The notes below the pieces were generated by a model. It saw nothing but the letters and a program-made list of their open reading frames with translations. It made no database searches and had not been told where the DNA came from. Made by a program: the position numbers and the translations under genes. Of a stretch of DNA of 64,000 nt, positions 17,737 through 51,125 are shown one piece after another. Source of the stretch: Oscarella lobularis (Eukaryota); assembly GCF_947507565.1 (NCBI RefSeq), contig NC_089179.1, positions 990,681-1,054,680 on the forward strand. Reading direction: 5' to 3'. Numbering within the stretch: position 1 is the stretch's first letter; every line of letters begins with the position of its first letter.

Positions 17737-19062
17737 CTAGGCGTCTCGTTCCTGTTGTTGGCGAGCGAATTCTCTCGCCGCCTTCTTTGCCCGCTGTCTC
17801 TTCCGTCGCTGGTGCCCGCGCGACGCGAGATGAACCGTCCATTCGTGATCGCCGTGCACGACGCGTCCGTCGCATATATCGCACACGTGCTTCGTCCACG
17901 TCTCGGGCGCGTTTTCGAGTCGATCGAGCGGGGCGACGGGAGGATCTTCGCCCGACGATTTCGCGACTAAAACATCGATCGCTCGACTCAAAACAACGCG
18001 ATCCCACTCGCCGACATTCGACGTATCCAATCCGAAAACGTCCGGTGCCGCCTGGCCTCGTCGCCTCAAGAAACGATTGCGTATCCACGTCGTTTGCTTG
18101 CGAGCGTAACTCTTCGTCGCACTCTTCAATTTCTCCGCGCACGCTTCGAACATGGCCTCGCTCTCCCTCCCGTCGTCGACGCAAGTCAAATACGGCACAA
18201 ATTCCTTGTACCCAATCGCTTGAAATATTCCCTTTGTGCGTTCCGCCAGCGGCTGATTCGCCGATTCCCTATGCAACCAGTGCAATTCGTCTCTCAAGCC
18301 GCCGCGTATCATCTCATCGACCCGAGCGTCCAATCTGGGATCAAGGACGCTGTAGTCGCACTGCAACCAAAATACGGTTGCGTCGGGAAAGCGCATTCCG
18401 CCGCCTTGCGCTCCGCCGCCCGCCTCCTTTCTCTGCTCGGCCAAAATGTCGCTGTGCGGTCGACCGCACTGGGCGTGTACTTCCAAACTCCGTCGAATTC
18501 GTCGAACGTCGTTCGGATGCAGTCTCGCCGCTCGATCAGGATCGATTTCTTTCAATTTAGCGTAAATTTCGTCGTCCGGAAGTCGAGTCAGCCAATCAAA
18601 TTGCTCCGAGGCCTCCTCACGTGAAGCCTCCTTACGGCAATCTACCAAAATATTCCATAGCAGCGATTCGATGTAATAGTTCGTTCCGCCGACGACGATC
18701 GGCAATTTTCCGTCGTCGCGCAGACGATCGATGAGCGGGAGCGCGGCGTCGCGAAATTCGACGACCGAGTACTCGTGAAACGGCGGCACGGAGCCGACGA
18801 AGTGATGGCGACACTGTCGACGTTCGCTCGGCGTCACTTTGTTCGTTACGACGTCGAGACCGGCGTAGATCTGCATCGAATCGGCGCTTATTATTTCGCC
18901 GTCGAAGCGACGAGCCAACTCAATGGCGAGCTTGGACTTTCCGACGCCGGTGCAGCCCAAGATGACGACGAGAGGAATCTTTCTGAGAGTAGCCAGATCT
19001 CTGTCTAACGCACGGTAACCCAAGTGAATGTACACTGACACACCGACTACAGGGATGCACAC
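17737..19062 (-). CDS. TRIT1: tRNA dimethylallyl (isopentenyl) transferase with a C-terminal C2H2 zinc finger.
   Basis: P-loop LVVILGCTGVGKSKLAIELARRFDGEIISADSMQIYAGLDVVTNK, conserved core motifs, and C-terminal CDICDGRVVHGDHEWTVHLASRGH. One intronless 441-aa ORF. Confidence 0.9.
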   Translation of the reverse strand: MCIPVVGVSVYIHLGYRALDRDLATLRKIPLVVILGCTGVGKSKLAIELARRFDGEIISADSMQIYAGLDVVTNKVTPSERRQCRHHFVGSVPPFHEYSVVEFRDAALPLIDRLRDDGKLPIVVGGTNYYIESLLWNILVDCRKEASREEASEQFDWLTRLPDDEIYAKLKEIDPDRAARLHPNDVRRIRRSLEVHAQCGRPHSDILAEQRKEAGGGAQGGGMRFPDATVFWLQCDYSVLDPRLDARVDEMIRGGLRDELHWLHRESANQPLAERTKGIFQAIGYKEFVPYLTCVDDGRESEAMFEACAEKLKSATKSYARKQTTWIRNRFLRRRGQAAPDVFGLDTSNVGEWDRVVLSRAIDVLVAKSSGEDPPVAPLDRLENAPETWTKHVCDICDGRVVHGDHEWTVHLASRGHQRRKRQRAKKAAREFARQQQERDA

Positions 19063-31503: not shown

Positions 31504-32418
31504 TCAGCTCATATAGTATTGTGTCCATTTAGAACACTTTTTAAATTTTTCTACTATGTACTCCATACCTTTATCCACAATCGTCATATTCAAAACCTCG
31601 GGCGTATCCTTACCCCAGTTCTGCAGTCGAGCGCCCCAATAGTGATTGAGCCTCAGCTCCGCATCAGGCGCATCCATGCTCCTTCCTTTCAACGGATGGT
31701 TGTGATGAACTTGAGCTCGTACATTTGCAGTCCTATAGATCGGCTTAACCAGTTGATTCGACCGTTTTGGCGTGCGTCGCCACAGTCGATCAATCAACAA
31801 TTCGCGCTCCCACAACGGCCAGCCCAAAAACAAATAATTCTGCATGCAAATCTCCGACACTTGCTCGGCGTCAAACTTGCGCACATACCGCGACAAGAAT
31901 CCTGGATCTCGATCGACAGGCGAAAACGGATACTCGTCAATATCTATAGCAACCTGCCACTCGGTCTCTGTCTTGTAATGATCGATGCAGTGTTGATAAG
32001 CGGCAACTTGAGTGCCTTGAATCGTATAGGGATTGTGCTCGTGCCAATCAACGTACGTCACAAAACCGTTGTCAATGAACTTGCTCACGTTCGCTCGTTG
32101 CGATTCGTTCGCGTACAAATAGGCATCGTACAGGTACACGTGCTCAATGCCCATGTAGCGTTGATAGACAAGCCATTGACGTAGTTCGCGTGACGTCAAC
32201 TTCGCCTTGTCTCCTATAACATGCGAAGGAGAATGACCGAGGTCAAAAAGTACGGCGGGCGAGCTGACGCATATGGGAATGTCCACGCTTCGCACGCGGC
32301 GCGATCGGATTCCACCCATTGAGTCGGAGAAGGCGAAGGGTCGCCTCTTGTTTCGCGGCGCGTTAGCGGAGCCACGGATAGTAGTATCCGTGGCGGAGCT
32401 GAGCCTCCGTTTTTCCAA
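31504..32418 (-). CDS. Type-II membrane glycosyltransferase of the GT92 (DUF23) family, copy A.
   Basis: An N-terminal signal anchor is followed by ...YLYDAYLYANE...GTQVAAYQHCIDHYKTETEWQVAIDIDEYPFSPVD, which matches the GT92 signature (YNxCL...WVAFxDxDEFxxP). 304-aa ORF. Confidence 0.55.
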   Translation of the reverse strand: MEKRRLSSATDTTIRGSANAPRNKRRPFAFSDSMGGIRSRRVRSVDIPICVSSPAVLFDLGHSPSHVIGDKAKLTSRELRQWLVYQRYMGIEHVYLYDAYLYANESQRANVSKFIDNGFVTYVDWHEHNPYTIQGTQVAAYQHCIDHYKTETEWQVAIDIDEYPFSPVDRDPGFLSRYVRKFDAEQVSEICMQNYLFLGWPLWERELLIDRLWRRTPKRSNQLVKPIYRTANVRAQVHHNHPLKGRSMDAPDAELRLNHYWGARLQNWGKDTPEVLNMTIVDKGMEYIVEKFKKCSKWTQYYMS

Positions 32419-32892: not shown

Positions 32893-33879
32893 TCAGCTCA
32901 TATAGTATTGTGTCCATTTAGCACACTTTTTAAATTTTTGTACTATGTACTCCATACCTTTATCCACAATCGTCATATTCAAAACCTCGGGCGTATCCTT
33001 ACCCCAGTTCTGCAGTCGAGCGCCCCAATAGTGATTGAGCCTCAGCTCCGCATCAGGCGCATCCATGCTTCTTCCTTTCAACGCATAATTGTGATGAACT
33101 TGAGCTTGTACATTCGCAGTCCTATAGATCGGCTTAACCAGTTGATTCGACCGTTTTGGCGTGCGTCGCCACAGTCGATCAATCAACAATTCGCGCTCCC
33201 ACAACGGCCAGCCCAAAAACAAATAATTCTGCATGCAAATCTCCGACACTTTCTCGTGCTCGACGTCAAACTTGCGCACATACCGCGACAAGAATCCTGG
33301 ATCTCGATCGACAGGCGAAAACGGATACTCGTCAATATCTATAGCAACCTGCCACTCGGTCTCTGTCTTGTAATGATCGATGCAGTGTTGATAAGCGGCA
33401 ACTTGAGTGCCTTGAATCGTATAGGGATTGTGCTCGTGCCAATCAACGTACGTCACAAAACCGTTGTCAATGAACTTGCTCACGTTCGCTCGCTGCGATT
33501 CGTTCGCGTACAAATAGGCATCGTACAGGTACACGTGCTCAATGCCCATGTAGCGTTGATAGAAAAGCCATTGTCGTAGTTCGCGTGACGTCAATTTCGC
33601 CTTGCTTCTTTTATGTATGCGAAGGAGGATGACCGAGGTCAAAAAGTACGGCGGGCGAGCTGATGCATATGGGAATGTCCACGCTTCGCACGCGGCGCGA
33701 TCGGATTCCGCCCATTGAGTCGGAGAAGGCGAAGGGTCGCCTCTTTTTTCGCGGCGCGTTAGCGGAGCTGAGCCTCCGTTTTTCCAAAGGAGAAACGCCG
33801 CAAAAGCGAAAGCGACGAGCGCAAAGAGGAATCGATTCCAGCTACTTGTAGTGCCGCGGAGCTTCATCATTGCAAACAA
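32893..33879 (-). CDS. GT92 (DUF23) family glycosyltransferase, copy B. Tandem near-identical paralog of copy A with an intact signal anchor.
   Basis: 328-aa ORF that is over 90% identical to copy A across the catalytic region. Same strand. The duplicated unit is about 1.37 kb, including flanks (31441-32760 and 32760-33890). Confidence 0.55.
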   Translation of the reverse strand: MFAMMKLRGTTSSWNRFLFALVAFAFAAFLLWKNGGSAPLTRREKRGDPSPSPTQWAESDRAACEAWTFPYASARPPYFLTSVILLRIHKRSKAKLTSRELRQWLFYQRYMGIEHVYLYDAYLYANESQRANVSKFIDNGFVTYVDWHEHNPYTIQGTQVAAYQHCIDHYKTETEWQVAIDIDEYPFSPVDRDPGFLSRYVRKFDVEHEKVSEICMQNYLFLGWPLWERELLIDRLWRRTPKRSNQLVKPIYRTANVQAQVHHNYALKGRSMDAPDAELRLNHYWGARLQNWGKDTPEVLNMTIVDKGMEYIVQKFKKCAKWTQYYMS

Positions 33880-33897: not shown

Positions 33898-34453
33898 GTG
33901 AGTCGTGAGACGGGACCCTGGATCACGAGCACACCAACGGCACCAACGACGATGGGCCGATCGAAGCGCTCAAAAAGAACCAACGAGGTGAAGGCAGCTG
34001 AAGAAAGCTCGTCAGAATGCAAGAAGGAAAGACGAGACTCCGAGAGTGAGTCACTCTCGAAGCCGATCACCTTCAGAATAGAGCACTGGTAAAGAAACTT
34101 TCTGCTGCAATGAAACGAACTCAGGAATGCAATTTTAGTGTAAGCTGAAGTAGATTCAAAAGAGAAGCCAAGAAATTGGCTTCTGAGTTGGAGGAAGCGT
34201 TTCCAGAATGTTCAATTGAAATCAATCCGGACAAACCGCGCCGAGGTTCCTTCGAGTGCTCTTTGGTTAAGGAAGACGGAGAAGGTAATGCACTAAGTAC
34301 GAGACGTAGAGCAACGAATATTTTGTGCTTATAATAATAGTTGAATTGATTTGGTCTGGGCACAAGAAGGGGCCACCACGAAAGTTGAAATTTCCTGAGG
34401 ATGGAGTTGTTGCGGATGAGGCGAGAAATTTCTTGAAAACGGATAAGAATTAG
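33898..34453 (+). CDS. SELENOH: Selenoprotein H (Rdx/SelW-fold), 3 exons, with an in-frame UGA selenocysteine codon at 34146-34148 inside a CVSU motif.
   Basis: Exon 1 is basic: ...KPITFRIEHC (donor CACTG|GTAAAG). Exon 2 starts CVS-TGA-SRFKREAKKLASELEEAFPECSIEINPDKPRRGSFECSLVKEDGEG. Exon 3 reads VELIWSGHKKGPPRKLKFPEDGVVADEARNFLK. Compare human SELENOH: VIEHCTSURVYG...VNPSKPRRGSFEVTLLRSDNSRVELWTGIKKGPPRKLKFPEP. Confidence 0.75.
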
Positions 34454-34489
34454 AAGTAAGAGTAGCTAGAACTTTGTTGTTGCATGTTT

Positions 34490-34550
34490 CGTGCCTACCG
34501 TGATGATGGCAAATTGACTAAAGCTTAGACGTCAAATGCTTGACTGTGTG
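34490..34550 (+). ncRNA. Candidate SECIS element in the SELENOH 3'UTR (cgtgATGAtggcaaattgactAAAgcttagacgtcaaatgcttGActg).
   Basis: An ATGA quartet, an unpaired AAA about 13 nt downstream, and a 3' GA capable of forming the non-Watson-Crick core. It sits 40-100 nt after the stop and before an AATAAA at about 34556. The stem pairing is only partly convincing by eye. Confidence 0.35.
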
Positions 34551-34635
34551 TAGCACGAATAAAGAAAATTCTTCTTACGCCTTTGACAATAGTATCCATG
34601 CTTTGAAGCGCCAATTGAGCATCCGGGATCGCGAG

Positions 34636-35206
34636 ATGGCTCGTACTTTCCAGACAAAGAAAAAGCCGAAGAATCAGAAGAAGGATCGCCGCCCGAAGCC
34701 TAGCGGTCCTTACAGAGGAAACACATTTAGAATTGAAAAGGCCAAGGGGTACGTACAGTGTAGAAATGGAGCGTTTTTAGAACTATGCGAACCGAGATCA
34801 TAGATCTAAGGAAGACGAGGTGCAGAGACTGATGACGGGGCTAAAGACGTCTTTTCCGGGATGCAAAATTGACCTCCGAAGGCATCCGCGTGAAGGAGCG
34901 TTCCTTTGCACTCTCGTCCGAAAAGATCAAGATGGTAGCGTTGTTTGTGGTCGATTAACTGCATGAATGGTCGATCTTCCGAACAGATGTCTTACTTTGG
35001 ACTGGCAGTGATAAAGAAAGCAAATACCCCGGAGAAGGCGAGGTTGAGGCCGAGGCTCAACGACACGTAGAAAAGATTGAGGAAGATAAAGAGGAGAAGG
35101 ATGATAAAGAGGCTGATAAAGAGGCTGATAAAGAAGTTGATAAAGAGAAAGGCGTCGATAAAGAAGCTGATGAAGAAACTGATGCCAAAGGTAAGGATGA
35201 ATAATA
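34636..35206 (+). CDS. SelH-like tandem paralog with no obvious Sec/CxxU codon and an acidic lysine/aspartate-rich C-terminal tail.
   Basis: MARTFQTKKKPKNQKKDRRPKPSGPYRGNTFRIEKAKG parallels the SELENOH N-terminal exon. EDEVQRLMTGLKTSFPGCKIDLRRHPREGAFLCTLVRKDQDGS parallels exon 2. DVLLWTGSDKESKYPGEGE... parallels exon 3. Confidence 0.45.
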
Positions 35207-35227: not shown

Positions 35228-35750
35228 GACTTGCTTGCATATTGTGTGTTCTGAGTAAAATGAGTTTGTGTTGACTGGAACAGATAGTTATAGCTAATTC
35301 TAATCCAAAATGAAAATACTCAAGTATACTTACTGAAAACGTCGGTTTATGTGATTGCGTCATATGGTACCAAAAGATCCATATTGTAGCCTGAGGCGCT
35401 TGGCTCGTCATACGCGGAGAAGCAGATGGATGGAAGCTGATTTTTCATCAGGTCAGACGTCAGGGCAAAGTCAAAAACGTTAATCGTTCCTCGTACTCTA
35501 CGAGAAAGAACATAAATTCAAATAAAGATACTCATACTGAGACGTACGAAGATTTTAGAATGACATCCTCGTCGCTTTCATACCACGTCCAATCTTTGCC
35601 AGCTGGAACATTACCAACAATCAGTTTAGTATCAAAAAAGGAGCACAGCTCAACGGGATGCCTAAATAAAACACGAGACGAGATACAGTAGCTGCCGAGC
35701 AACAAAAGACGGGAAACTAACCTACTACTTGTTTCCCATAATAAAACTTC
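35228..35750. repeat. Dispersed segment, copy 1 of a roughly 0.5-kb direct duplication. It is re-found at 63231-63735 and carries the phosphatase 3' exon.
   Basis: 35235-35750 and 63238-63727 are near-identical by direct reading, including the ORF ...HPVELCSFFDTKLIVGNVPAGKDWTWYESDEDVILKSSYVS on the minus strand. Confidence 0.85.
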
Positions 35751-36036
35751 CTCATTAAAAGGATCCGACCAGAGCAGATCGCAGAACAAGCCGGTAAGAG
35801 GAGGCTCCCGAAATCGATCCAGCGCTCGAATATCGTCAACAGAATGCAAATGAGGACCTACAAGAAAAAATAATAAATAGACATAGTAGGAATTCTAATA
35901 CGTGCACTCACTTATTCCACCATGCAAACAGAGCCATTTCCCAATAGGTGACGTAGCGAGACAAGCAATAGGTAGACAATCAAAACACGCCATAAAACGC
36001 TCATACAAGACACTCCTCCCGAAAATTTTGCTCCTC
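35532..36036 (-). pseudogene. Middle and C-terminal exons of a PPP-family Ser/Thr protein phosphatase (PPEF-like, calcineurin-like fold). It is truncated at its 5' side by the satellite array.
   Basis: ...SKIFGRSVLYERFMACFDCLPIACLATSPIGKWLCLHGGIS matches the PPP motif FxDCFxxLP...HGG, and DIRALDRFREPPLTGLFCDLLWSDP matches the PPP (L/V)DLLWSDP motif. Reading 5'-ward, the exon runs straight into satellite sequence at 36037. Confidence 0.6.
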
Positions 36037-39000
36037 GTCGTACGTACTCCGCCGGCAGGCGATGTATATATTCCGGCAAGTGGTGCACGTATACTCAGCC
36101 GGCAGGCGATGTATATATTCCTGCAAGTGGTGTACGTATACTCAGCCGGCAGGCGAAGTACATATTCCGTCAAGTGGTGTACGTACTCCGCCGGCAGGCG
36201 GTGTATATATTCCGGCAAGCGGTGTACGTACTACGCCGGCAGGCGATGTACATATTCCGGCAAGTGGTGTACGTACTCCGCAGGCAGGCGATGTATATAT
36301 TCCGGCAAGCGGTGTACGTACTCCGCCGGCAGGCGATGTATATATTCCGGCAAGTGGTGTACGAACTCCGCCGGAGGCGGTGTGTATATTCCGGCAAGCG
36401 GTGTACGTACTCCGCCTGCAGGCGGTGTATATAATCCGGCAAGTGGTGTACTCCGCCGGCAGGCGGTGTATATATTCCGGCAAGTGGTGTACGTACTCCG
36501 CCGGAGGGCGATGTATATATTCCGGCAAGTGGTGTACGTACTCCGCCGGCAGGCGATGAATATATTCCGGCAAGAGGTGTACGTACTCCACAGGCAGGCG
36601 GTGCATATATTCCGGCAGGCGGTGCATATATTCCAGCAAGTGGTGTACGTTCTCCGCCGGCAGGCGATGTATATATTCCGGCAAGTGGTGTACGTACTCC
36701 GCCGGCAGGCGGTGTATACATTACGGCAGGCGGTGCATATATTCCGGCAAGTGGTGTACGTACTCCGCCGGCAGGCGATGAATATATTCCGGCAAGAGGT
36801 GTACGTACTCCACAGGCAGGCGGTGCATATATTCCGGCAGGCGGTGCATATATTCCAGCAAGTGGTGTACGTTCTCCGCCGGCAGGCGATGTATATATTC
36901 CGGCAAGTGGTGTACGTACTCCGCCGGCAGGCGGTGTATACATTCCGGCAGGCGGTGCATATATTCCGGCAAGTGGTGTACGTACTCCGCCGGCAGGCGA
37001 TGTATATATTCCGGAAAAAGGTGTATATATTCCGGCAAGAGGTGTACGTACTCCGCCGGCAGGCGATGTATATATTCCGACAAGTGGTGTACGTACTCCG
37101 CCGGAAGGCGGTGTATATATTCCGGAGAGTGGTGAACGTACTCCGCCGGCTGGCGGTGTATATATTCCAAAAAGAGGTGTATATATTCCGGCAAGGTGTG
37201 TACGTACTCCGCCGGCAGGCGGTGTATATATTCCGGCAGGTGGTGTACGTGCTCTGCCGGCAGGCGGTGTATATATTCGGGCAAGCGGTGTATATATTCC
37301 GGAAGGCAGTGTACCTACTCCGCCGGGAGGCGGTGTATATATTCCTGCAGGCGTGTACGTACTCTGCCAGCAGGCGGTGTATATATTACAGAAAGCGAGT
37401 ATATATTCCGGAAGGCAGGTTACGTACTACGCCGGCAGGCGGTGTATATATTACGGAGAGCGGTGTACGTACTCCGCCTGCAGGCGGTGTATATATTACG
37501 GCAAGCGGTGTACGTATACTCAGCCGGCAGGCGATGTATATATTCCGGGGAGATGTGTATATATTCCGGCAAGAGGTGTACGTACTCCGCCGGTAGGCGA
37601 TGTATATATTCCGACAAGTGGTGTACGTACTCCGCCGGCTGGCGGTGTATATATTCCAGCAAAGAGGCGTATATATTCCGGCAAGGGGTGTACGCACTCC
37701 GCCGGCAGGCGGTGTATATATTCCGGTGAGTGGTGTACGTACTCCGCCGGCTGGCGGTGTATATATTCCGGCAAGAGGTGTATATAATCCGGCAAAGGGT
37801 GTACGTACTCCGCCGGTAGGCGGAGTATATATTCCGCCAAGTGGTGTACGTATACTCCACCGGAAGGCGGTGTATATATTCCGGCAAGCGGTGTACGTAC
37901 TCCGCGGGCAGGCGGTGTATATATTCCGGAAGGCAGTGTACGTACTCCGCCGGCAGGCGGTGTATATGATCCGGCAAGCGGTGTACGTACTCCGGAGGCA
38001 GGCGGTGTATATATTCCGGAAAACGTGTACGTACTCCGCCGGCAGGCGGTGTATATATTCCGGCAAGCGAGTATATATTCCGGATAGCAGTGTACGTACT
38101 CCGCCGGCAGGCGGTGTGTATATTCGGGCAAGCGGTAAATATATTCCGGAAGGCAGTGTACCTACTCCGCCGGGAGGCGGTGTATATATTCCTGCAGGCG
38201 TGTACGTACTCTGCCAGCAGGCGGTGTATATATTACAGAAAGCGAGTATATATTCCGGAAGGCAGGTTACGTACTACGCCGGCAGGCGGTGTATATATTA
38301 CGGAGAGCGGTGTACGTACTCCGCCTGCAGGCGGTGTATATATTACGGCAAGCGGTGTACGTATACTCAGCCGGCAGGCGATGTATATATTCCGGGGAGA
38401 TGTGTATATATTCCGGCAAGAGGTGTACGTACTCCGCCGGTAGGCGATGTATATATTCCGACAAGTGGTGTACGTACTCCGCCGGCTGGCGGTGTATATA
38501 TTCCGGCAAGAGGTGTATATAATCCGGCAAAGGGTGTACGTACTCCGCCGGTAGGCGGAGTATATATTCCGCCAAGTGGTGTACGTATACTCCACCGGAA
38601 GGCGGTGTATATATTCCGGCAAGCGATGTACGTACTCCGCAGGCAGGCGATGTATATATTCCGGCAAGTGGTGTATGTACTCCGCCGGCAGGCGATGTAT
38701 ATACTCCGGCAAGTGGAGTACGTACTCCGCCGGCAGGCGGTGTATATATTCCGGCAAGCGGTGTACGTACTCCGCAAGCAGGCGATGTATATATTCCGGC
38801 AAGTGGAGTACGTACTCCGCCGGCAGGCGGTGTATATATTCCGGCAAGCGGTGTACGTACTCCGCAAGCAGGCGATGTATATATTCCGGCAAGAGGTGTA
38901 CGTACTCCGCAGGCAGGCGATGTATATATTCGGGCAAGAGGTGTACGTACTCCGCCGGGTGGCGGTGTATATATTCCGGCAGGTGGTGTACGTATACTCA

Positions 39001-42000
39001 GCCGGCAGGCGGTGTATATATTCCGGCAAGCGGTGTACGTACTCCGCAGGCAGGCGATGTATATATTCCGGCAAGAGGTGTATATATTCCGGCAAGTGGT
39101 GTATGTACTCCGCCGGCAGGCGATGTATATACTCCGGCAAGTGGAGTACGTACTCCGCCGGCAGGCGGTGTATATATTCCGGCAAGTGGAGTACGTACTC
39201 CGCAAGCAGGCGATGTATATATTCCGGCAAGAGGTGTACGTACTCCGCAGGCAGGCGATGTATATATTCCGGGAAGTGTTGTACGTACTCCGCCGGCAGG
39301 CGGTGTGTATATTCCGGCAAGAGGTGTACGTACCCCGCCGGCAGGCGATGTATATATTCCGGCAAGTGGTGTATATATTCCGGCAAGAGGTGTAGGCGAT
39401 GTATATATTCCGGCAAAACGTGTACGTACTCCGCCGGCAGGCGGTGTATATATTCCGGCAAGAGGTGTACGTACTCCGCCGGCAGGCGATGTATATATTC
39501 CGGCAAGACGTGTACGTACTCCGCCTGCAGGCGGTGTATATTTTCCGGCAAGTGGCGTACGTACTCCGCCGGCAGGTGATGTATATATTCCGGGCAGGGG
39601 TGTACGTATACTCCGCCGGCAGGCGATGTATATATTCCGGCAAGCGGTGTACGTACTCCGCCGGCAGGCGATGTATATATTCGAGCAAGTGGTCTACGTA
39701 CTCCGACGGCAGGCGGTGGATATATTCCGGCAAGTGGTGTACGTACTCCGCCGGCTGGCGGTGTATATATTCCGGCAAGAGGTGTACGTACTCGGCAGGC
39801 AGGCGATGTATATATTCAGGCAAGAGGTGTATATATTCCGGCAAGAGGTGTACGTACTCCGCCGGCAGGCGATGTATATATTCCGGCAAGACGTGTACGT
39901 ACTTCGCCGGCAGGCGGTGTATATATTCCGGCAAGCGAGTATATATTCCGGAAGGCAGGTTACGTACTACGCCGGCAGGCGGTGTATATATTCCGGCAAG
40001 CGGTGTATATATTACGGAGAGCGGTGTACGTACTCCGCCGGCAGGCGATGTATATATTCCGACAAGTGGTGTACGTACTCCGCCGGAAGGCGGTGTATAT
40101 ATTCCGGAGAGTGGTGTACGTACTCCGCCGGCAGGCGGTGTATATATTCCGGGAAGCGGTGTATATATTACGGCAAGCGGTGTACGTACTCCGCGGGCAG
40201 GCGGTGTATATATTCCGGCAGGCGTGTACATACTCCGCCGGCGAGCGGTGTATATATTCCGGAAGGCAGTGTACGTACTCCGCCGGCAGGCGGTGTATAT
40301 GATCCGGCAAGCGGTGTACGTACTCCGGAGGCAGGCGGTGTATATATTCCGGAAAACGTGTACGTACTCCGCCGGCAGGCGGTGTATATATTCCGGCAAG
40401 CGAGTATATATTCCGGATAGCAGTGTACGTACTCCGCCGGCAGGCGGTGTATATATTCCGGAGGGCCGTGTATATATTCGGGCAAGCGGTGTATATATTC
40501 CGGAGGGCAGTGTACCTACTCCGCCGGGAGGCGGTGTATATATTCCTGCAGGCGTGTACGTACTCTGCCAGCAGGCGGTGTATATATTACAGCAAGCGAG
40601 TATATATTCCGGAAGGCAGGTTACGTACTACGCCGGCAGGCGGTGTATATATTCCGGCAAGCGGTGTATATATTACGGAGAGCGGTGTACGTACTCCGCC
40701 TGCAGGCGGTGTATATATTACGGCAAGCGGTGGGTATATTCCGGCAAGCAGTGTATATATTCCGGAAGGCATTGTACGTACTCCGCCGGCAGGCGGTGTA
40801 TATATTCTGGAGAGCGGTGTACATATTCCGGCAGGCGGTGCACGTACTCCGCCGGCAGGCGATGTATATATTCCGGCAAGTGGTGTACGTATACTCCGCC
40901 GGGTGGCGGTGTATATATTCCGGCAGGTGGTGTACGTATACTCAGCCGGCAGGCGATGTATATACTCCGGCAAGTGGTGTACGTATACTCCGCCGGCAGG
41001 CGATGTATATACTCCGGCAAGTGGTGTACGTATACTCCGCCGGCAGGCGATGTATATATTCCGGCAAGTGGTGTACGTATACTCCGCCAGTAGGCGGTGT
41101 ATATATTCCGGCAAGTGGTGTACGTACTCCGCCGGCAGGCGATGTATATATTCCGGCAAGTGGTGCACGTATACTCAGCCGGCAGGCGATGTATATATTC
41201 CTGCAAGTGGTGTACGTATACTCAGCCGGCAGGCGATGTACATATTCCGTCAAGTGGTGTACGTACTCCGCCGGCAGGCGGTGTATATATTCCGGCAAGC
41301 GGTGTACGTACTACGCCGGCAGGCGATGTACATATTCCGGCAAGTTGTGTACGTACTCCGCAGGCAGGCGATGTATATATTCCGGCAAGTGGTGTACGTA
41401 CTCAGCCGGCAGGCGGTGTATATATTCCGGCAGGCGATGTATATATTCAGGCAAGAGGTGCACGTACTCCGCAGGAAGGCGATGTATATATTCCGGGGAG
41501 ATGTGTATATATTCCGGCAAGAGGTGTACGTACTCCGCCGGTAGGCGATGTATATATTCCGACAAGTGGTGTACGTACTCCGCCGGCTGGCCGTGTATAT
41601 ATTCCAGCAAAGAGGTGTATATATTCCGGCAAGGGGTGTACGCACTCCGCCGGCAGGCGGTGTATATATTCCGGTAAGTGGTGTACGTACTCCGCCGGCT
41701 GGCGGTGTATATATTCCGGCAGGCGGTGTATATATTCCGGCAAGCGGTGTATATATTCCGGCAAGCGGTGTATATATTCCGGCAGGCGGTGTATATATTC
41801 CGGCAGGCGGTGTATATATTCCGGCAGGCGTGTACGTACACCGCCGGCAGGCGGTGTATATATTCCGGCAGGCGTGTACGTACTCCGCCGGCAAGCGGTG
41901 TATATATTCCGGCAGGCGGTGTATATATTCCGGCAGGCGGTGTATATATTCCGGCAGGCGGTGTACGTACTCCGCCGGCAAGCGGTGTATATATACCGGC

Positions 42001-42111
42001 AGGCGTGTACGTACACCGCCGGCAAGCGGTGTATATATTCCGGCAGGCGGTGTATATATTACGGCAGGCGGTGTATATATTCCGGCAAGCGGTGTATATA
42101 TTCCGGCAGGC

Positions 42112-42281
42112 GGCTACAACGACTACAATGACTGCAACGGCTACAATGACTACAACGACTACAACGACTACAACGGCTACAACGGCTACAACGGCTACAA
42201 CGACTACAACGGCTACAACGACTACAACGGCTACAACGACTACAACGGCTACAATGGCTACAACGACTACAATGACTGCAG
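42112..42281. repeat. Short tract of an 18-bp (9+9) minisatellite, GGCTACAAC GACTACAAC, embedded in the satellite.
   Basis: Direct reading. It is flanked on both sides by the 21/24-bp satellite. Confidence 0.9.
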
Positions 42282-42694
42282 GCGGTGTATATATTCCGGC
42301 AGGCGGTGTACGTACTCCGCCGGCAAGCGGTGTATATATTCCGGCAGGCGGTGTACGTACTCCGCCGGCAAGCGGTGTATATATACCGGCAGGCGTGTAC
42401 GTACACCGCCGGCAAGCGGTGTATATATTCCGGCAGGCGGTGTATATATTCCGGCAAGCGGTGTAAATATACCGGCAAGCATGTACTCCGCCGGGGGGCG
42501 GTGTATATATTCCGGCAAGCGGTGTACGTACTCCGCTGGCAGGCGTGTACGTTCTCCGCCGGCAGGCGGTGTATATATTCCGGCAAACAGTGTATATATT
42601 CCGGCAAGCGGTGTATATATTCCGGCAGGCGTGTACGTACTCCGCCGGCAGGCGGTGTATATATTCCGGCAGGCGGTGTATATATTCTGGCAAG

Positions 42695-44883
42695 AAACTA
42701 CAACGGCTACAACTACAACAACTACCACAACGGCTACAATGACTACAACGACTACAACGGCTACAATGACTACAATGACTACAATGACTGCAACGGCTAC
42801 AATGACTACAACGACTACAACGGCTACAATGACTACAATGACTGCAACGGCTACAATGACTACAACGACTACAACGACTACAACGGCTACAACGACTACA
42901 ACGACTACAACGGCTACAACGACTACAACGGCTACAACGGCTACAACGACTACAACGGCTACAACGACTACAACGGCTACAACGACTACAATGACTACAA
43001 TGACTACAATGACTGCAACGACTACAACGGCTACAACGACTACAACGGCTACAACGGCTACAACGACTACAACGGCTACAACGACTACAATGACTACAAT
43101 GACTACAATGACTGCAACGGCTACAATGACTATAACGACTACAACGACTACAACGGCTACAACGACTACAACGGCTACAACGGCTACAACGGCTACAACG
43201 ACTACAACGGCTACAACAACTACAACGGCTACAACGACTACAACGGCTACAACGACTACAACGGCTACAACGACTACAATGACTACAATGACTACAATGA
43301 CTGCAACGGCTACAATGACTACAACGACTACAATGACTACAACGGCTACAACGACTACAACGGCTACAACGACTACAACGGCTACAACGACTACAACGGC
43401 TACAACGACTACAACGGCTACAACGGCTACAACGACTACAACGGCTACAACGACTACAATGACTACAATGACTACAATGACTGACACGGCTACAATGACT
43501 ACAACGACTACAACGACTACAACGGCTACAACGGCTACAACGGCTACAACGGCTACAACGACTACAACGGCTACAACGACTACAACGGCTACAACGACTA
43601 CAACGGCTACAACGACTACAACGGCTACAACGACTACAATGACTACAATGACTACAATGACTGCAACGGCTACAATGACTACAACGACTACAACGACTAC
43701 AACGGCTACAACGACTACAACGGCTACAACGACTACAACGGCTACAACGGCTACAACGACTACAACGGCTACAACGACTACAATGACTACAATGACTACA
43801 ATGACTGCAACGGCTACAATGACTACAACGACTACAATGACTACAACGGCTACAACGACTACAACGGCTACAACGACTACAACGGCTACAACGACTACAA
43901 CGGCTACAACGACTACAACGGCTACAACGGCTACAACGACTACAACGGCTACAACGACTACAATGACTACAATGACTACAATGACTGACACGGCTACAAT
44001 GACTACAACGACTACAACGACTACAACGGCTACAACGGCTACAACGGCTACAACGGCTACAACGACTACAACGGCTACAACGACTACAACGGCTACAACG
44101 ACTACAACGGCTACAACGACTACAACGGCTACAACGACTACAACGACTGCAACGGCTACAACGACTACAATGACTGCAATGACTACAATGACTGCAACGG
44201 CTACAACGACTACAACGACTACAACGGCTACAACGGCTACAACGACTACAACGGCTACAACGACTACAACGGCTACAACGGCTACAACGGCTACAACGAC
44301 TACAACGACTACAACGACTACAATGACTACAATGACTACAATGACTGCAACGGTTACAATGACTACAACGACTACAACGACTACAACGGCTACAACGACT
44401 ACAACGGCTACAACGACTACAACGGCTACAACGACTACAACGGCTACAACGACTACAACGGCTACAACGACTACAATGACTACAATGACTACAACGACTG
44501 CAACGGCTACAACGACTACAACGACTACAACGGCTACAACGACTACAACGGCTACAACGACTACAACGGCTACAACGACTACAACGGCTACAACGACTAC
44601 AACGGCTACAACGGCTACAACGGCTACAACGACTACAATGACTACAATGACTACAATGACTGCAACGGCTACAATGACTACAACGACTACAACGACTACA
44701 ACGGCTACAACGACTACAACGGCTACAACGACTACAACGGCTACAACGACTACAACGGCTACAACGACTACAACGGCTACAACGACTACAACGACTACAA
44801 CGGCTACAATGACTACAATGACTGCAACGGCTACAATGACTACAACGACTACAACGGCTACAACGACTACATCGGCTACAACG
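42695..44883. repeat. A 2.2-kb minisatellite of 9-bp units (GGCTACAAC / GACTACAAC / GACTACAAT / GACTGCAAC) with a supra-periodicity of about 150-190 bp.
   Basis: The marker variant GACTGCAACGGCTACAATGAC recurs at roughly 42840, 43011, 43104, 43296, 43477, 43656, 43803, 43981, 44155, 44343, 44497, 44651 and 44821. Confidence 0.9.
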
Positions 44884-46559
44884 GTGTATATATTCCGGAA
44901 GGCAGTGTACGTACTTTGCCGACAGGCAGTGTATATATTACGGAAGCGGTGTACATACTCCGCGGGCAGGCGGTGTATATATTCCGGCAAGCGGTGTATA
45001 TATTCCGGAAGGCAGTGTACGTACTTTGCCGGCAGGCGGTGTATATATTCCGGCAGGCGGTGTATATATTCCGGCAAGCGGTGTATATATTACGGCAAGC
45101 GGTGTATATATTCCGGCAGGCGGTGTATATATTCCGGCAGGTGTATACATACTCCGCCGGCAGGCGGTGTATATATTCCGGCAAGCGGTGCATATATTCC
45201 GGCAGGCGGTGTACGTACACCGCCGGCAGGCGGTGTATATATACCGGCAGGCGTGTACGTACTCCGCCGGCAAGCGGTGTATATATTCCGGCAGGCGTGT
45301 ACGTACTCCGCCGGCAAGCGGTGTATATATTCCGGCAGGCGTGTACGTACTCCGCCGGCAAGCGGTGTATATATTCCGGCAGGCGGTGTATATATTCCGG
45401 CAGGCGGTGTATATATTCCGGCAGGCGGTGTATATATTCCGGCAGGCGTGTACGTACTCTGCCAGCAGGCGGTGTATATATTCCGGCAGGCGGTGTATAT
45501 ATTCCGGCAGGCGGTGTATATATTCCGGCAGGCGTGTACGTACACCGCCGGTAGGCGGTGTATATATTCCGGCAGGCGTGTACGTACACCGCCGGCAGGC
45601 GGTGTATATATTCCGGCAGGCGGTGTATATATTCCGGCAGGCGTGTACGTACTCCGCCGGCAAGCGGTGTATATATTCCGGCAGGCGGTGTATATATTCC
45701 GGCAGGCGGTGTATATATTCCGGCAGGCGGTGTATATATTCCGGCAGGCGTGTACGTACTCCGCCGGCAAGCGGTGTATATATTCCGGCAGGCGTGTACG
45801 TACTCCGCCGGCAGGCGGTGTATATATTCCGGCAGGCGTGTACGTACTCTGCCAGCAGGCGGTGTATATATTCCGGCAGGCGGTGTATATATTCCGGCAA
45901 GCGGTGTATATATACCGGCAGGCGTGTACGTACTCCGCCGGCAAGCGGTGTATATATTCCGGCAGGCGGTGTATATATTCCGGCAGGCGTGTACGTACTC
46001 CGCCGGCAAGCGGTGTATATATTCCGGCAGGCGGTGTATATATTCCGGCAAGCGGTGTATATATTCCGGCAGGCGTGTACGTACTCCGCCGGCAAGCGGT
46101 GTATATATTCCGGCAGGCGGTGTATATATTCCGGCAGGCGGTGTATATATTCCGGCAAGCGGTGTATATATTCCGGCAGGCGGTGTACGTACACCGCCGG
46201 CAGGCGGTGTAGATATACCGGCAGGCGTGTACGTACTCCGCCGGCAAGCGGTGTATATATTCCGGCAGGCGGATTATATATTCCGGCAGGCGGTGTATAT
46301 ATTCCGGCAAGCGGTGTACGTATCCGCTGGCAGGCGGTGTATATATTCCGGAAGGCAGTGTATATGTGTATATATTCCGGCAGGCGTTGTATATATTCCG
46401 GCAAGCGGTGTATATATTCCGGCAGGCGTGTACGTACTCCGCCGGCAAGCGGTGTATATATTCCGGCAGGCGGTGTATATATTTCGGCAAGCGGTGTATA
46501 TATACCGGCAAGCGTGTACGTACTCCTTATGAATAGTCTTACCTTCGGGTGGACGATCT

Positions 46560-49137: not shown

Positions 49138-51125
49138 ATGGGTCGAAATCTCTCTATCGTCTTCCTCATCGTCGTTTTCGTTCGATTTGCGCACGGTAGG
49201 CGACGTCACTCGAGCGTTCTTCGTCGCCGTGAGCTCCCCTTTGTTTTGTTTCTTGTCGTAGCCTGCCCATCGATCGATTTCGAGTGCGACAACGGGCTCT
49301 GCATTCCGAAAGAGTGGCAGTGCGACGGCGATTGGGATTGTCGCGACGGCGAGGACGAATTCGGCTGTCCCGGTTAGCGAGAGAACGCGTTTTTCCTCCC
49401 CTGCGCTGCACACAGCGCTGTAGTGTCGTAGTTTTTCCGCTCGGGGGCCCCCCTTTCTCGCTCCCACGCCTACATGTGTACCTTTCTTCTTTTGCTTCCG
49501 GGGAATCCCCCAGCGAGCCGGAATTGTAGCGCGGGCGAATTTCGGTGCGCGAACGGTCACTGCATACGTCCGACGTGGAAGTGCGATCAGGACAACGATT
49601 GCGGCGACGGCAGCGACGAATCGAATTGTCGTAAGTTTTAGAGATTTCATATCTCCGGCTTTTTTGTTTCGGAAACGTAAAGTAAAAAAAGCGGGCCACC
49701 AGAGTAACTTTATTATCTCTGATGGCACGTGCGTTTTTCGTTATACAGTATCCTTTTTTTGAAGAGTCACTCTCGTATGATAACCTATAGCTCATTGACG
49801 ATGCACTGAATCTCCTGCATAAATATTTTGCCCTTATATAGGTCGATCGTGCAATGCCTAAAATACAAGACTTAGAGCACGCAGTAATGTATTATTTTTT
49901 TCTTGTAGCGCTTAAAAATTGCACGTCTTCCGAGTTCAAGTGCGACCAGGGTAAGTGCATTCGAGCGAGCTGGCAGTGCGACGGCCATAACGACTGCAGC
50001 GATTCGTCGGACGAGAGAAATTGCAGTAAGTTACGATGCCATACGGCAAAAAGGAAAGAGTCGTTTCTTCGTCTCCTAGCGGGCGTCACCTGTTCGGCGG
50101 TCGAATTCCAATGCGTCGGAACGTCCGAGTGCATCGCGCAAAGTTGGAAATGCGATGGCGAATCCGATTGCGGTAATGGAGCGGACGAAAAAGATTGCCG
50201 TAAGTATTAGAGGGAGGGTAATCGCAGAGAGGAGGTCGTTTTCTCACAGCTCCCACAACGAATTGCTCCGCGAATCAGTTTCTCTGCGCATCAAAGCGCT
50301 GCATTCCGGCAAGCTACGTGTGCGATCGCGACAACGACTGCGGCGATTGGTCAGACGAATCGTCGTGCCGTAAGAATAGAGTAGTACCAATGGTACCCCC
50401 ATCTCACGCGTCGATTAGGTGCGCCCGGCAATTGCGCCGCAGACGAGTTGAAATGCCGCAGCGGCTTGTGCATTCCGTCCTTGTGGCGTTGCGACAGCGA
50501 TTACGACTGCGAATTGAATTCCGACGAAGAGAACTGCAGTACGTGGGGAATTAGTAGAAATCTCCTCTCCCCCTCTCCCCCCTCCCCAAAAAAAATTTTT
50601 ATGGGACTTGTCAAACTTATAGACAAAGGCTATTCACTGAAAACTCTAATTTATAGCCTAAGGAAAATGTTTGGTTTGATTGATCGGGATGATTACAATG
50701 CGGTGCTTCGCTTGGAAAGAGTCTAGGACTCTTAGCTAGCCTAATTAGTGCAATCTTCTAGGAACTTCACTTAGAAGGAGGAGACTTAATTTTCCGTATA
50801 GAAAACTCTAAAATGGGGAGACTCCCAATATTTGCCGGTTTTTAATTCGCCTTTTTTTAAAAAATTAGCCTGTCTTCCTGGCGAGTTTCACTGCGCCAAT
50901 TATCGTTGCATTCCGATGAGCAAAAGATGCGACGGGACGGACGATTGCGGCGACGGCTCGGACGAAAGCAATTGTCGTAAGCGACTTATTAGAGACCCCT
51001 AACGAGATGATGAAGAGAAACAGGCGCTTTTTTTAGCTACGCCTACTCCGACAGTTCCGCCCTGCCCTCAGAACGAGTTCACGTGTGGCGATGGGCAGTG
51101 CATAGCGCAAAAGTCGGTGTGCGAT
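49138..51125 (+). pseudogene. Gene with a signal peptide followed by eight LDL-receptor class A (LDLa) cysteine-rich modules, one module per phase-1 exon. The eighth module is cut mid-domain by the satellite array.
   Basis: Signal peptide [20 protein letters not shown]. Modules: [35 protein letters not shown]; [35 protein letters not shown]; CTSSEFKCDQGKCIRASWQCDGHNDCSDSSDERNC; CSAVEFQCVGTSECIAQSWKCDGESDCGNGADEKDC; [35 protein letters not shown]; [35 protein letters not shown]; [35 protein letters not shown]; CPQNEFTCGDGQCIAQKSVCD|satellite. Every exon ends ...C|GTAAG and starts after a ...AG acceptor in phase 1. Confidence 0.8.

What the first reader, a model, noticed from the sequence alone, without database searches (positions are those of the whole stretch)
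33898..35206. Selenoprotein H with an in-frame UGA (CVSU) next to a tandem paralog that appears to have lost the selenocysteine motif
The first gene has the canonical Rdx-fold CxxU motif (C-V-S-TGA) at the exon1/exon2 junction. It conserves KPRRGSFE...VELW.GxKKGPPRKLKFPE with vertebrate SELENOH. Gene predictors and the ORF track terminate at this TGA. The neighbouring paralog retains the three-exon layout and the C-terminal motifs, but I cannot find a Cys-x-x-Sec or Cys-x-x-Cys at the equivalent position. It also has a long acidic tail. A Sec/Sec-less tandem pair could reflect subfunctionalisation. I could place a SECIS candidate only for copy 1.
Basis: partly seen in the sequence, partly recalled or inferred. 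Interest (0 to 1): 0.6.

Follow-up and report, generated by a model that had tools for sequence, protein, structure and literature searches.

The report
Sponge selenoprotein H plus redox-dead paralog
This stretch of the sponge Oscarella lobularis genome holds an ordinary selenoprotein H gene whose UGA "stop" codon encodes selenocysteine, followed by a fast-evolving tandem duplicate that has lost the whole redox motif, so it is real but of modest interest.

Summary
The window is Oscarella lobularis, a homoscleromorph sponge.

**Copy 1 (33952-34453, three exons)** is a typical selenoprotein H.
- It has an in-frame TGA at 34146-34148 inside C-V-S-U. The Cys codon is split TG|T by a 50-nt intron.
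- It matches Pfam Rdx and TIGR02174 above their cut-offs.
- It carries the KPRRGSFE and WSGHKKGPPRKLKFPE signatures.
- Four SelH transcripts from other organisms have TGA at the same position.
- A form-1 SECIS-like hairpin (34488-34559) starts 35 nt after the stop codon and is followed by AATAAA. It passes my own SECISearch-style scan. Rfam's SECIS_1 model aligns in register but scores only 13.3 bits, below its 35-bit threshold.

**Copy 2 (34636-35204, three exons)** is a true paralog: BLASTP E=1e-13, with both intron phases conserved.
- It has no CxxU or CxxC under any of 37 in-frame splice combinations.
- It has lost GPPR, has no SECIS, and matches no family profile.
- It has a basic N-terminus and a 57-residue acidic tail.
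- No relative was found anywhere.

Copy 2's open three-exon frame suggests it still codes for a protein, but neither expression nor function has been shown. Sec/non-Sec SelH pairs are already known in Drosophila. Interest is modest.

The parts
33952..34088 (+). Copy 1 (SelH) exon 1: a basic, Ser/Glu-rich N-terminus plus strand beta-1 (TFRIEH). It ends with TG, the first two bases of the CxxU cysteine codon.
   Evidence: Spliced translation; tblastn 100%
34089..34138 (+). Copy 1 intron 1: 50 nt, GTAAAG...TTTTAG, phase 2, inside the Cys codon.
34139..34284 (+). Copy 1 exon 2: completes Cys, then V-S-U (TGA 34146-34148), helix alpha-1 and KPRRGSFE.
   Evidence: TGA at the homologous position in L003-L006
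34146..34148 (+). In-frame TGA, read as the selenocysteine codon (residue 49) of the C-V-S-U motif.
   Evidence: conserved IEHC[KT]S-TGA in four homologous transcripts
34285..34340 (+). Copy 1 intron 2: 56 nt, GTAATG...TAATAG, phase 1.
34341..34453 (+). Copy 1 exon 3: VELIWSGHKKGPPRKLKFPE...DKN, ending in the TAG stop.
34488..34559 (+). SECIS-like form-1 hairpin in the copy-1 3'UTR. Helix I is 34488-34498/34550-34559 (10 bp with one bulge). The internal loops are CGUG and CUGUGU. The core is AUGA 34503-34506 and GA 34542-34543. Helix II has 9 bp. The 12-nt apical loop is UAAAGCUUAGAC, with AAA at 34520-34522.
   Evidence: Own SECISearch-style scan at -18.5 kcal/mol. The unconstrained MFE is the same structure. 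Rfam SECIS_1 aligns full length in register at 13.3 bits, below threshold. The null rate is 0.019 hits per kb per strand.
34558..34563 (+). AATAAA poly(A) signal, directly after the SECIS.
34636..34748 (+). Copy 2 exon 1: a basic N-terminus (11 K/R in 29 residues) plus beta-1 (TFRIEKAKG). There is no Cys.
34749..34803 (+). Copy 2 intron 1: 55 nt, GTACGT...TCATAG, phase 2, the same phase as copy-1 intron 1.
34804..34934 (+). Copy 2 exon 2: SKEDEVQRLMTGLKTSFPGCKIDLRRHPREGAFLCTLVRKDQD. It has no CxxU or CxxC.
34935..34986 (+). Copy 2 intron 2: 52 nt, GTAGCG...GAACAG, phase 1, the same as copy 1. In the alternate haplotig a 937-bp TIR element sits after its third base.
34987..35204 (+). Copy 2 exon 3: DVLLWTGSDKESKYP (GPPR deleted), then the 57-residue acidic tail (35031-35201) and the TAA stop.

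Best explanation
**Copy 1** is the selenoprotein H (SELENOH, Rdx family) gene of Oscarella lobularis. Its mRNA carries UGA as codon 49, inside a C-V-S-U redox motif between strand beta-1 and helix alpha-1 of a thioredoxin-like fold. A form-1 SECIS hairpin lies in the 3'UTR, with its AUGA core about 300 nt downstream of the UGA in the spliced mRNA (49 nt between the stop codon and that core). By inference it recruits the standard eukaryotic Sec machinery (SBP2, eEFSec, Sec-tRNA), so the UGA is read as selenocysteine and a 131-residue protein is made.

**Copy 2**, which starts 182 nt after copy 1's stop codon, is a lineage-specific tandem duplicate. It kept the gene architecture and the beta-alpha-beta-beta-beta-alpha core. 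It lost both redox residues, the GPPR signature and any SECIS. It gained an acidic, repeat-derived tail and has evolved much faster than copy 1. It therefore cannot act as a CxxU oxidoreductase.

The most likely reading is that copy 2 is still a translated, non-catalytic SelH derivative. With a basic N-terminus and an acidic tail, it resembles a nuclear or chromatin-associated protein.

**Shown:** the gene structures, the homology, the motif loss and the SECIS-like structure.

**Inferred:** Sec insertion itself, and the expression, localisation and function of copy 2.
For: **Organism.** The IPPT ORF in the window is 379/379 identical to RefSeq XP_065830928.1 of Oscarella lobularis.

**Copy 1**
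- The spliced frame is open apart from TGA 34146.
- Pfam Rdx scores 39.1 bits against a cut-off of 22.6. TIGR02174 CXXU_selWTH scores 51.7 against 34.2.
- It is 55% identical to Magallana gigas selenoprotein H.
- Transcripts L003-L006 read IEHC[KT]S-TGA-[QS]V[YF]K in frame.

**SECIS**
- My scan gives 3 hits in 128 kb, and one of them is 34503/34542.
- The scan recovers the SECIS in 2 of the 3 SelH transcripts whose 3'UTR is complete.
- The null rate of 0.019 per kb gives roughly 0.002 expected hits in the about 100 nt between the stop codon and AATAAA.
- The unconstrained MFE is the same fold, and Rfam SECIS_1 aligns AUGA, AAA and UGA in register.

**Copy 2**
- BLASTP to copy 1 gives E=1e-13.
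- Both intron phases are identical to copy 1.
- Two Cys residues (FPxC and F[EL]C) are shared only by the two sponge copies and not by other SelH sequences, which points to a duplication within the lineage.
- Copy 1 is 42-50% identical to the outgroup SelH sequences, while copy 2 is 21-27% identical. Divergence is therefore asymmetric.
- The 153-codon frame is intact across three exons and all gaps are in frame. Only 1.8% of neutral substitution-only simulations keep 87 codons open at this level of divergence.
- The AlphaFold model gives E30-34, H41-54, E59-63, E71-76, E83-88 and H98-122, with core pLDDT of 73-84.
Against: **SECIS.** Rfam SECIS_1 is far below its gathering score (13.3 against 35 bits; E=6.4 even in a 147-nt search) and was not reported in the 1.7-kb or whole-window scans. 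The hairpin's energy is not exceptional: z=-1.57, and 15 of 200 shuffles fold as well.

**Expression.** No transcript or protein evidence exists for either gene. Neither gene model is in the 15-billion-protein collection.

**Copy 2**
- It matches no Pfam or NCBIfam profile.
- It retains only 8 of 19 SelH-invariant columns. That is not significantly more than it retains at variable columns (p=0.27).
- It has no homologue in 1.84 billion representative proteins or in JGI metagenomes.
- Downstream it has only a variant AGTAAA poly(A) signal.
- One haplotype carries a 937-bp transposon 3 nt into intron 2.
- Foldseek finds no significant structural match. Mouse SelW (2npb) scores only E=0.19.
Confidence: 0.8

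Rival explanations
1. Copy 2 is a decaying or non-expressed pseudogene. After the duplication it lost the Sec codon, the redox Cys and the SECIS. It now drifts, and its open frame is partly a by-product of a GA-rich repeat expansion.
For: - There is no family-profile match.
- CxxU and GPPR are lost.
- Retention of SelH-invariant columns is not significantly enriched (p=0.27).
- There is no orthologue or annotated protein anywhere.
- A transposon insertion at the intron-2 donor is polymorphic.
- Only 182 nt separate copy 2 from the upstream stop codon, and there is no canonical AATAAA.
Against: - The 153 codons are intact over three exons, with canonical GT-AG sites, conserved intron phases and only in-frame indels.
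- Neutral simulations keep the core open in about 2% of runs, even when indels are ignored.
- Fold-critical residues P66, G69, F71, W86, G88 and P96 are kept.
- The predicted fold is kept.
- There are zero differences across three haplotypes, although overall diversity is low at about 0.5%.
Confidence: 0.35
2. The TGA at 34146 is a genuine stop codon or a gene-model artefact. On this reading copy 1 encodes only a 48-residue peptide, or is spliced differently, and the downstream similarity to SelH is a relic.
For: ORF and gene callers stop there, and no full-length protein is in the databases. The calibrated Rfam SECIS model is sub-threshold.
Against: - The best-conserved SelH signatures lie downstream of the TGA, in the same frame, across two further exons.
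- Four homologous transcripts carry TGA at exactly this position.
- Family profiles span the TGA, covering residues 42-118.
- A SECIS-like hairpin lies where one is expected.
- The third haplotype differs in copy 1's coding sequence only by an in-frame 12-nt deletion and one D>E change.
Confidence: 0.04
3. Copy 2 does carry a redox motif, through a splice pattern other than the one modelled here.
For: The exon 1-2 junction of copy 2 is predicted, not observed. The unspliced read-through contains C-R-N-G.
Against: All 37 in-frame GT/GC-AG combinations were enumerated and none yields CxxC or CxxU. The only C-x-x-TGA (34821) is out of frame with exon 2 and is followed by further stops.
Confidence: 0.03

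Closest known systems
Selenoprotein H (SELENOH/SelH; Drosophila BthD), Rdx family of thioredoxin-like selenoproteins
   Same: Copy 1 shares these features with the family:
- The IEHCxSU redox motif with Sec encoded by UGA.
- The KPRRGSFE and WSGxKKGPPRKLKFP signatures.
- A small size of 131 aa.
- A basic N-terminus.
- A 3'UTR SECIS.
- Family-profile matches above cut-off.

Reviews describe SELENOH as a 14-kDa nucleolar protein with Cys-x-x-Sec, an N-terminal RKRK motif and an AT-hook (PMC10650576).
   Different: It comes from a homoscleromorph sponge. An earlier survey listed no SelH for the demosponge Amphimedon (PMC3473315, Table 1). Two extra Cys residues (FPEC and FECS) are not seen in the other SelH sequences I aligned. 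No AT-hook or RKRK motif was tested or seen verbatim. The N-terminus reads GRSKRSKR.
Sec/Cys paralog pairs and duplications of SelH: the Drosophila melanogaster SelH Cys-paralog, the D. grimshawi SelH duplication, two SelH genes in Trichoplax, and salmonid SELENOHb/c
   Same: These are duplicated SelH genes in which one copy no longer uses Sec (PMC2500217), or lineage-specific SelH duplications (PMC3473315, PMC13134290).
   Different: The published non-Sec copies are described as Cys homologues, meaning the redox motif is kept with Cys in place of Sec. Copy 2 here has lost both the Cys and the Sec (AKGS in place of HCVSU). It has also lost GPPR, gained an acidic tail, and no longer matches the family profiles.
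Redox-inactive thioredoxin-fold proteins, such as PDI b/b' domains and the mitoribosomal thioredoxin-like subunits
   Same: The copy-2 model has a thioredoxin-like beta-alpha-beta-beta-beta-alpha core without catalytic Cys or Sec. Its weak Foldseek hits are to proteins of this kind and to mouse SelW.
   Different: No hit is significant (best E=8.6e-3; SelW E=0.19). Copy 2 is a recent derivative of SelH and not a member of those families.

Membership tests
Selenoprotein H / Rdx family - copy 1 | Rdx (SelT/SelW/SelH) thioredoxin-like domain recognised by the curated profiles | tested here: met
   Pfam PF10262: 39.1 bits against cut-off 22.6, E=8.5e-10, residues 42-118. TIGR02174 CXXU_selWTH: 51.7 bits against cut-off 34.2.
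Selenoprotein H / Rdx family - copy 1 | Cys-x-x-Sec motif with Sec encoded by an in-frame UGA between beta-1 and alpha-1 | tested here: met
   C-V-S-TGA at 34146-34148 in the spliced frame. IEHC[KT]S-TGA occurs at the same position in four homologous transcripts.
Selenoprotein H / Rdx family - copy 1 | SelH-specific signatures KPRRGSFE and WSGxKKGPPRKLKFP | tested here: met
   Both are present. Copy 1 is 55% identical to oyster selenoprotein H K1QN44 and 47-53% identical to three more SelH fragments.
Selenoprotein H / Rdx family - copy 1 | SECIS element in the 3'UTR, judged by structural criteria: AUGA...AA...GA, helix I, internal loop, helix II, and energy thresholds | tested here: met
   The hairpin at 34488-34559 passes my SECISearch-1-style scan at -18.5 kcal/mol overall and -6.2 for the upper stem. 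Positive controls were recovered in 2 of 3 cases, and the null rate is 0.019 per kb. The unconstrained MFE is the same fold.
Selenoprotein H / Rdx family - copy 1 | SECIS recognised by a calibrated model (Rfam RF00031 gathering score) | tested here: not met
   The full-length, in-register alignment scores only 13.3 bits against a gathering score of 35, with E=6.4 in a 147-nt search. It was not listed in the larger searches. SECISearch3 and Seblastian were not available.
Selenoprotein H / Rdx family - copy 1 | Actual selenocysteine incorporation | not testable with these tools
   This needs 75Se labelling, mass spectrometry or ribosome profiling.
Selenoprotein H / Rdx family - copy 2 | Sequence homology to SelH | tested here: met
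   BLASTP against copy 1 gives E=1e-13 with 34% identity over 87 aa. The reciprocal tblastn hit within the window gives 5e-5. Both intron phases are conserved.
Selenoprotein H / Rdx family - copy 2 | Recognition by the Rdx / CXXU_selWTH profiles | tested here: not met
   No Rdx hit at E<=10 in Pfam and none at E<=1 in NCBIfam.
Selenoprotein H / Rdx family - copy 2 | CxxU or CxxC redox motif | tested here: not met
   E-K-A-K-G-S replaces E-H-C-V-S-U. None of 37 in-frame splice alternatives restores the motif.
Selenoprotein H / Rdx family - copy 2 | SelH C-terminal signature GPPRKLKFP | tested here: not met
   GPPR is deleted, leaving WTGSDKESKYP.
Selenoprotein H / Rdx family - copy 2 | Thioredoxin-like beta-alpha-beta-beta-beta-alpha fold | tested here: inconclusive
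   The AlphaFold2 model shows that topology. Mean pLDDT is 66.8 and the core is 73-84, from a 7-sequence alignment. Foldseek against the PDB gives no hit at E<=1e-3. Thioredoxin-like proteins appear among the weak hits, with mouse SelW at E=0.19.
Selenoprotein H / Rdx family - copy 2 | SECIS in the 3'UTR | tested here: not met
   The scan finds nothing downstream of 35204. None is needed, because the frame has no TGA.

The most novel reading that the evidence does not exclude
Copy 2 is an expressed, selectively maintained 'pseudo-oxidoreductase'. It would be a sponge-specific SelH derivative that kept the Rdx scaffold and a basic N-terminus but replaced the Cys-x-x-Sec centre with a non-redox loop and acquired an acidic tail of the HMG or nucleoplasmin type. 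It would act in the nucleus or nucleolus as a non-catalytic partner, competitor or chromatin-binding relative of SelH. That would be a case of neofunctionalisation after complete loss of selenium chemistry, as opposed to the usual Sec-to-Cys swap.
Probability: 0.2. Interest if true: 0.45.

Novelty: new member of a known kind. Interest (0 to 1): 0.25.

Why it matters
**Annotation.** Neither gene appears in the protein collections I searched. Copy 1 is a standard example of a selenoprotein lost to annotation because its UGA is read as a stop.

**Distribution of SelH.** It documents SelH with Sec in a homoscleromorph sponge. A 2012 survey found no SelH in the demosponge Amphimedon, so this refines the picture of the ancestral animal selenoproteome. 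It does not change that picture, because SelH is already known from placozoans, cnidarians, bilaterians and algae.

**Copy 2.** If the redox-dead tandem paralog is expressed, it would be a natural experiment that separates the scaffold or binding role of the SelH fold from its selenium chemistry. That would be of some use, since the molecular function of SelH is still poorly defined.

Tried and rejected
- **Rfam on the window.** The whole window at gathering thresholds gave nothing. The 1.7-kb region at E<=10 gave only chance snoRNA-like hits. SECIS_1 appeared only in a 147-nt search and was sub-threshold.
- **Other hits of my SECIS scan.** The hits at 23864(+) and 2650(-) have no selenoprotein-like ORF beside them. 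They match the expected background of about 2.4 per 128 kb.
- **Within-species comparison.**
  - The alternate haplotig L001 is identical across both genes, apart from the transposon insertion in copy-2 intron 2 listed under 'noticed in passing'.
  - The third contig L007 differs by 3 SNPs and 2 indels over 1.8 kb, with none in copy 2 or the SECIS.
  - That is too little variation for dN/dS or covariation analysis.
- **Search for copy-2 relatives.** All of these were negative:
  - the word-indexed search of 5.8 billion proteins;
  - exhaustive phmmer against 1.84 billion representatives;
  - exact look-ups;
- **Synteny walk.** I looked in two other homoscleromorph assemblies, one of them Corticium candelabrum, around the IPPT orthologue. 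No SelH lies within +/-10 kb.
- **DNA alignment of the two copies.** I looked for a relic of CxxU in or near copy-2 intron 1. The sequences are too diverged for anything convincing.
- **PDB sequence search with copy 1.** No hit.
- **Enrichment test.** Copy 2 does not retain SelH-invariant columns significantly more than variable ones (p=0.27).
Full report
**Source**

The window is eukaryotic, with short introns of about 50-56 nt.
- A single-exon tRNA isopentenyltransferase ORF (17737-19062, minus strand) is 379/379 identical to RefSeq XP_065830928.1 of Oscarella lobularis. It is 66% identical to the O. pearsei protein and 55% identical to the Corticium candelabrum protein. The sequence therefore comes from the homoscleromorph sponge O. 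lobularis.
- The window is 100% identical to contig ptg000012l of ENA assembly ERZ18545485.
- Two further contigs of that assembly cover the locus. These are the alternate haplotig atg000855l (L001) and ptg000374l (L007), which is 98.9% identical over the non-repeat 11.4 kb.

**Copy 1: observation**

- Joining 33952-34088, 34139-34284 and 34341-34453 through GT-AG introns of 50 and 56 nt gives a 396-nt frame. Its only internal stop is TGA at 34146-34148.
- The protein reads ...KPITFRIEH-C-V-S-U-SRFKREAKKL...NPDKPRRGSFECSLV...VELIWSGHKKGPPRKLKFPEDG...DKN.

**Copy 1: identity**

- With U replaced by C, the protein matches Pfam Rdx (39.1 bits; cut-off 22.6) and TIGR02174 CXXU_selWTH (51.7 bits; cut-off 34.2). 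Both matches cover residues 42-118 and so span the TGA.
- The best database hit is Magallana gigas selenoprotein H at 55% identity. Four other hits are SelH fragments that begin just after the Sec position, which is the usual annotation artefact.
- I fetched the contigs that encode those four fragments and read through. All four continue upstream in frame as ...IEHCKS-TGA-QVYKK......IDHCKS-TGA-SVFKR... or ...IEHCTS-TGA-QVFKR.... The TGA is therefore at the conserved Sec position of SelH.

**SECIS**

- Rfam found nothing at gathering thresholds or at E<=10 in 1.7 kb.
- In a 147-nt search, SECIS_1 aligned full length (model positions 1-64) to 34494-34554 with AUGA, AAA and UGA in register. It scored only 13.3 bits against a gathering score of 35, with E=6.4.
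- I wrote a SECISearch-1-style scan. It requires ATGA, then 10-13 nt, then AA or CC, then GA. It also requires helix II of at least 8 bp next to the core, helix I of at least 5 bp, bounded internal loops, and energies of -12.6 and -3.7 kcal/mol or lower.
- The scan gives three hits in both strands of the 64-kb window. One of them is ATGA 34503 / GA 34542 at -18.5 kcal/mol. Its features:
  - a 10-bp helix I;
  - internal loops of 4 and 6 nt;
  - a 9-bp helix II;
  - a 12-nt apical loop, UAAAGCUUAGAC.
- The unconstrained MFE of 34486-34561 is the same structure, although its energy is unremarkable (z=-1.57).
- The scan recovers the SECIS in two of the three SelH transcripts whose 3'UTR is complete. 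It fires at 0.019 hits per kb per strand on Markov-simulated sequence.
- About 0.002 hits are therefore expected by chance in the roughly 100 nt between the stop codon (34453) and the AATAAA at 34558. The other two window hits match the background expectation and have no selenoprotein-like ORF beside them.
- In the spliced mRNA, the SECIS core lies 298 nt after the UGA. The UGA lies 136 nt upstream of the last exon junction.
- I judge the SECIS well supported on structural and positional grounds. It has not been validated by a calibrated tool.

**Copy 2: observation**

- The best model is ATG 34636 with exons 34636-34748, 34804-34934 and 34987-35204. Introns are 55 and 52 nt, and the product is 153 aa.
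- BLASTP against copy 1 gives E=1e-13, with 34% identity over 87 aa.
- Intron phases match copy 1 (phase 2, then phase 1), and intron 2 sits at the same alignment position.
- Where copy 1 has E-H-C-V-S-U-S-R-F-K-R, copy 2 has E-K-A-K-G-S-K.
- I enumerated all 37 in-frame GT/GC-AG combinations for intron 1, allowing TGA. None gives CxxC or CxxU. The single C-x-x-TGA at 34821 is out of frame.
- Copy 2 has also lost GPPR (WTGSDK----ESKYP), and KPRRGSFE has become HPREGAFL.
- It matches no Pfam or NCBIfam family.
- No SECIS-like hairpin follows it.
- Residues 1-29 hold 11 K/R. Residues 97-153 hold 27 D/E and 12 K/R, encoded by short GA-rich repeats.

**Copy 2: origin and status**

- Two cysteines (FP[EG]C and F[EL]C) are shared by the two sponge copies but absent from the other SelH sequences aligned. 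This argues for a duplication within the sponge lineage.
- Copy 1 is 42-50% identical to the outgroup SelH sequences, and copy 2 is only 21-27% identical. Divergence has therefore been strongly asymmetric.

Evidence that copy 2 still codes for a protein:
- It has an intact three-exon frame, canonical splice sites and only in-frame gaps.
- In a neutral substitution-only simulation, 1.8% of runs kept 87 codons open at 34% identity or less.
- Fold residues P, G, F, W, G and P are retained.
- The AlphaFold2 model has the Rdx topology beta-alpha-beta-beta-beta-alpha, with core pLDDT of 73-84.

Evidence against, or neutral:
- Retention of SelH-invariant columns (8 of 19) is not significantly above retention of variable ones (14 of 46; p=0.27).
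- Foldseek finds no significant PDB match. Thioredoxin-like proteins and mouse SelW appear only among the weak hits.
- No relative exists in 5.8 billion or 1.84 billion protein sets, or in JGI metagenome contigs.
- Neither gene model is present by exact look-up.
- The alternate haplotig carries a 937-bp element with terminal inverted repeats and a TA duplication, inserted three bases into intron 2.
- Across the three haplotypes, copy 2 and the SECIS are invariant. Copy 1 shows an in-frame 12-nt deletion (removing SESE) and one D>E change. With about 0.5% diversity, these counts are uninformative.

**Mechanism**

Copy 1 should work as every eukaryotic selenoprotein gene does. The 3'UTR SECIS recodes the UGA at codon 49 as Sec, which yields a small thioredoxin-like CxxU oxidoreductase with a basic N-terminus. 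This step is inferred from established knowledge and is not shown here.

Copy 2 cannot perform CxxU chemistry. It is either a non-catalytic derivative or a decaying duplicate. A basic N-terminus together with an acidic tail suggests a nuclear or chromatin context, which would be in keeping with the nucleolar, DNA-binding SELENOH described in PMC10650576. I put the two readings at roughly 55:35, with the remainder undecided.

**Comparison with what is known**

- SelH is widespread. A 2012 survey listed 0 SelH genes in Amphimedon, 2 in Trichoplax, and 1 each in Nematostella, Capitella and amphioxus (PMC3473315).
- Drosophila melanogaster has a Sec SelH plus a Cys paralog, and D. grimshawi has two Sec copies (PMC2500217).
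- Salmonids have SELENOHb and SELENOHc (PMC13134290).
- A tandem pair of one Sec copy and one non-Sec copy is therefore not new in kind.
- What differs here is that the second copy has lost both redox residues, not exchanged Sec for Cys, and has drifted out of reach of the family profiles.

**Verdict**

This is a new, apparently unannotated member of a known selenoprotein family in a sponge, together with a degenerate or repurposed tandem paralog. Interest is modest.

Noticed in passing
window 36040-46518 and 51124-61239: Two very large minisatellite arrays built from a 21-nt unit (CCGGCAGGCGGTGTATATATT), with higher-order periods of 45, 66, 90 and 111 nt. One frame reads P-A-G-G-V-Y-I heptads, but the frame changes often. 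An (ACTACAACG)n block at 42114-44883 is embedded in the first array. I did not resolve whether this is a giant repetitive coding gene or a satellite.
   Followed up: partly
L001 997-1933 (alternate haplotig), inserted after window 34937: A 937-bp element with terminal inverted repeats (CAGTGCGTCCAGCGCT...) and a TA target-site duplication. It is present in one haplotype only and sits three bases into copy-2 intron 2. It looks like a Tc1/mariner-type non-autonomous transposon.
   Followed up: partly
window 31504-32418 (-) and 32893-33879 (-): A tandem pair of single-exon GT92-family glycosyltransferase genes, about 96.6% identical to each other. The second starts only about 80 nt from the copy-1 ATG on the opposite strand, so the two genes probably share a very short bidirectional promoter region.
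   Followed up: partly
window ~35345-36040 (-), with a 97.8% identical copy of 35253-35745 at 63233-63727: A fragment of a PPP-family Ser/Thr phosphatase-like gene (...CLHGGIS...DLLWSDP...) with short introns. It lies tail to tail with copy 2, leaving only about 140 nt between the two stop codons. Part of it is duplicated near the end of the window.
   Followed up: no
L007 (contig ptg000374l) against window 34039-34050 and 34581-34600: The third haplotype has an in-frame 12-nt deletion that removes S-E-S-E from the low-complexity N-terminus of SelH. It also has a 20-nt deletion in the 182-nt spacer between the two genes.
   Followed up: yes
protein collection, cluster of P0007: The 55-aa ORF fragment P0007 (copy-2 exon 1 read into its intron) is listed in the same 90% cluster as P0132, a 410-aa JGI 'cysteine desulfurase / selenocysteine lyase'. 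This looks like a clustering artefact, not biology.
   Followed up: no
P0001 (UniProt K1QN44, Magallana gigas selenoprotein H) against L003: The oyster reference protein model lacks the VIEHCKSU segment that is present in the closely related transcript L003. It is another example of a selenoprotein model built around the UGA.
   Followed up: partly
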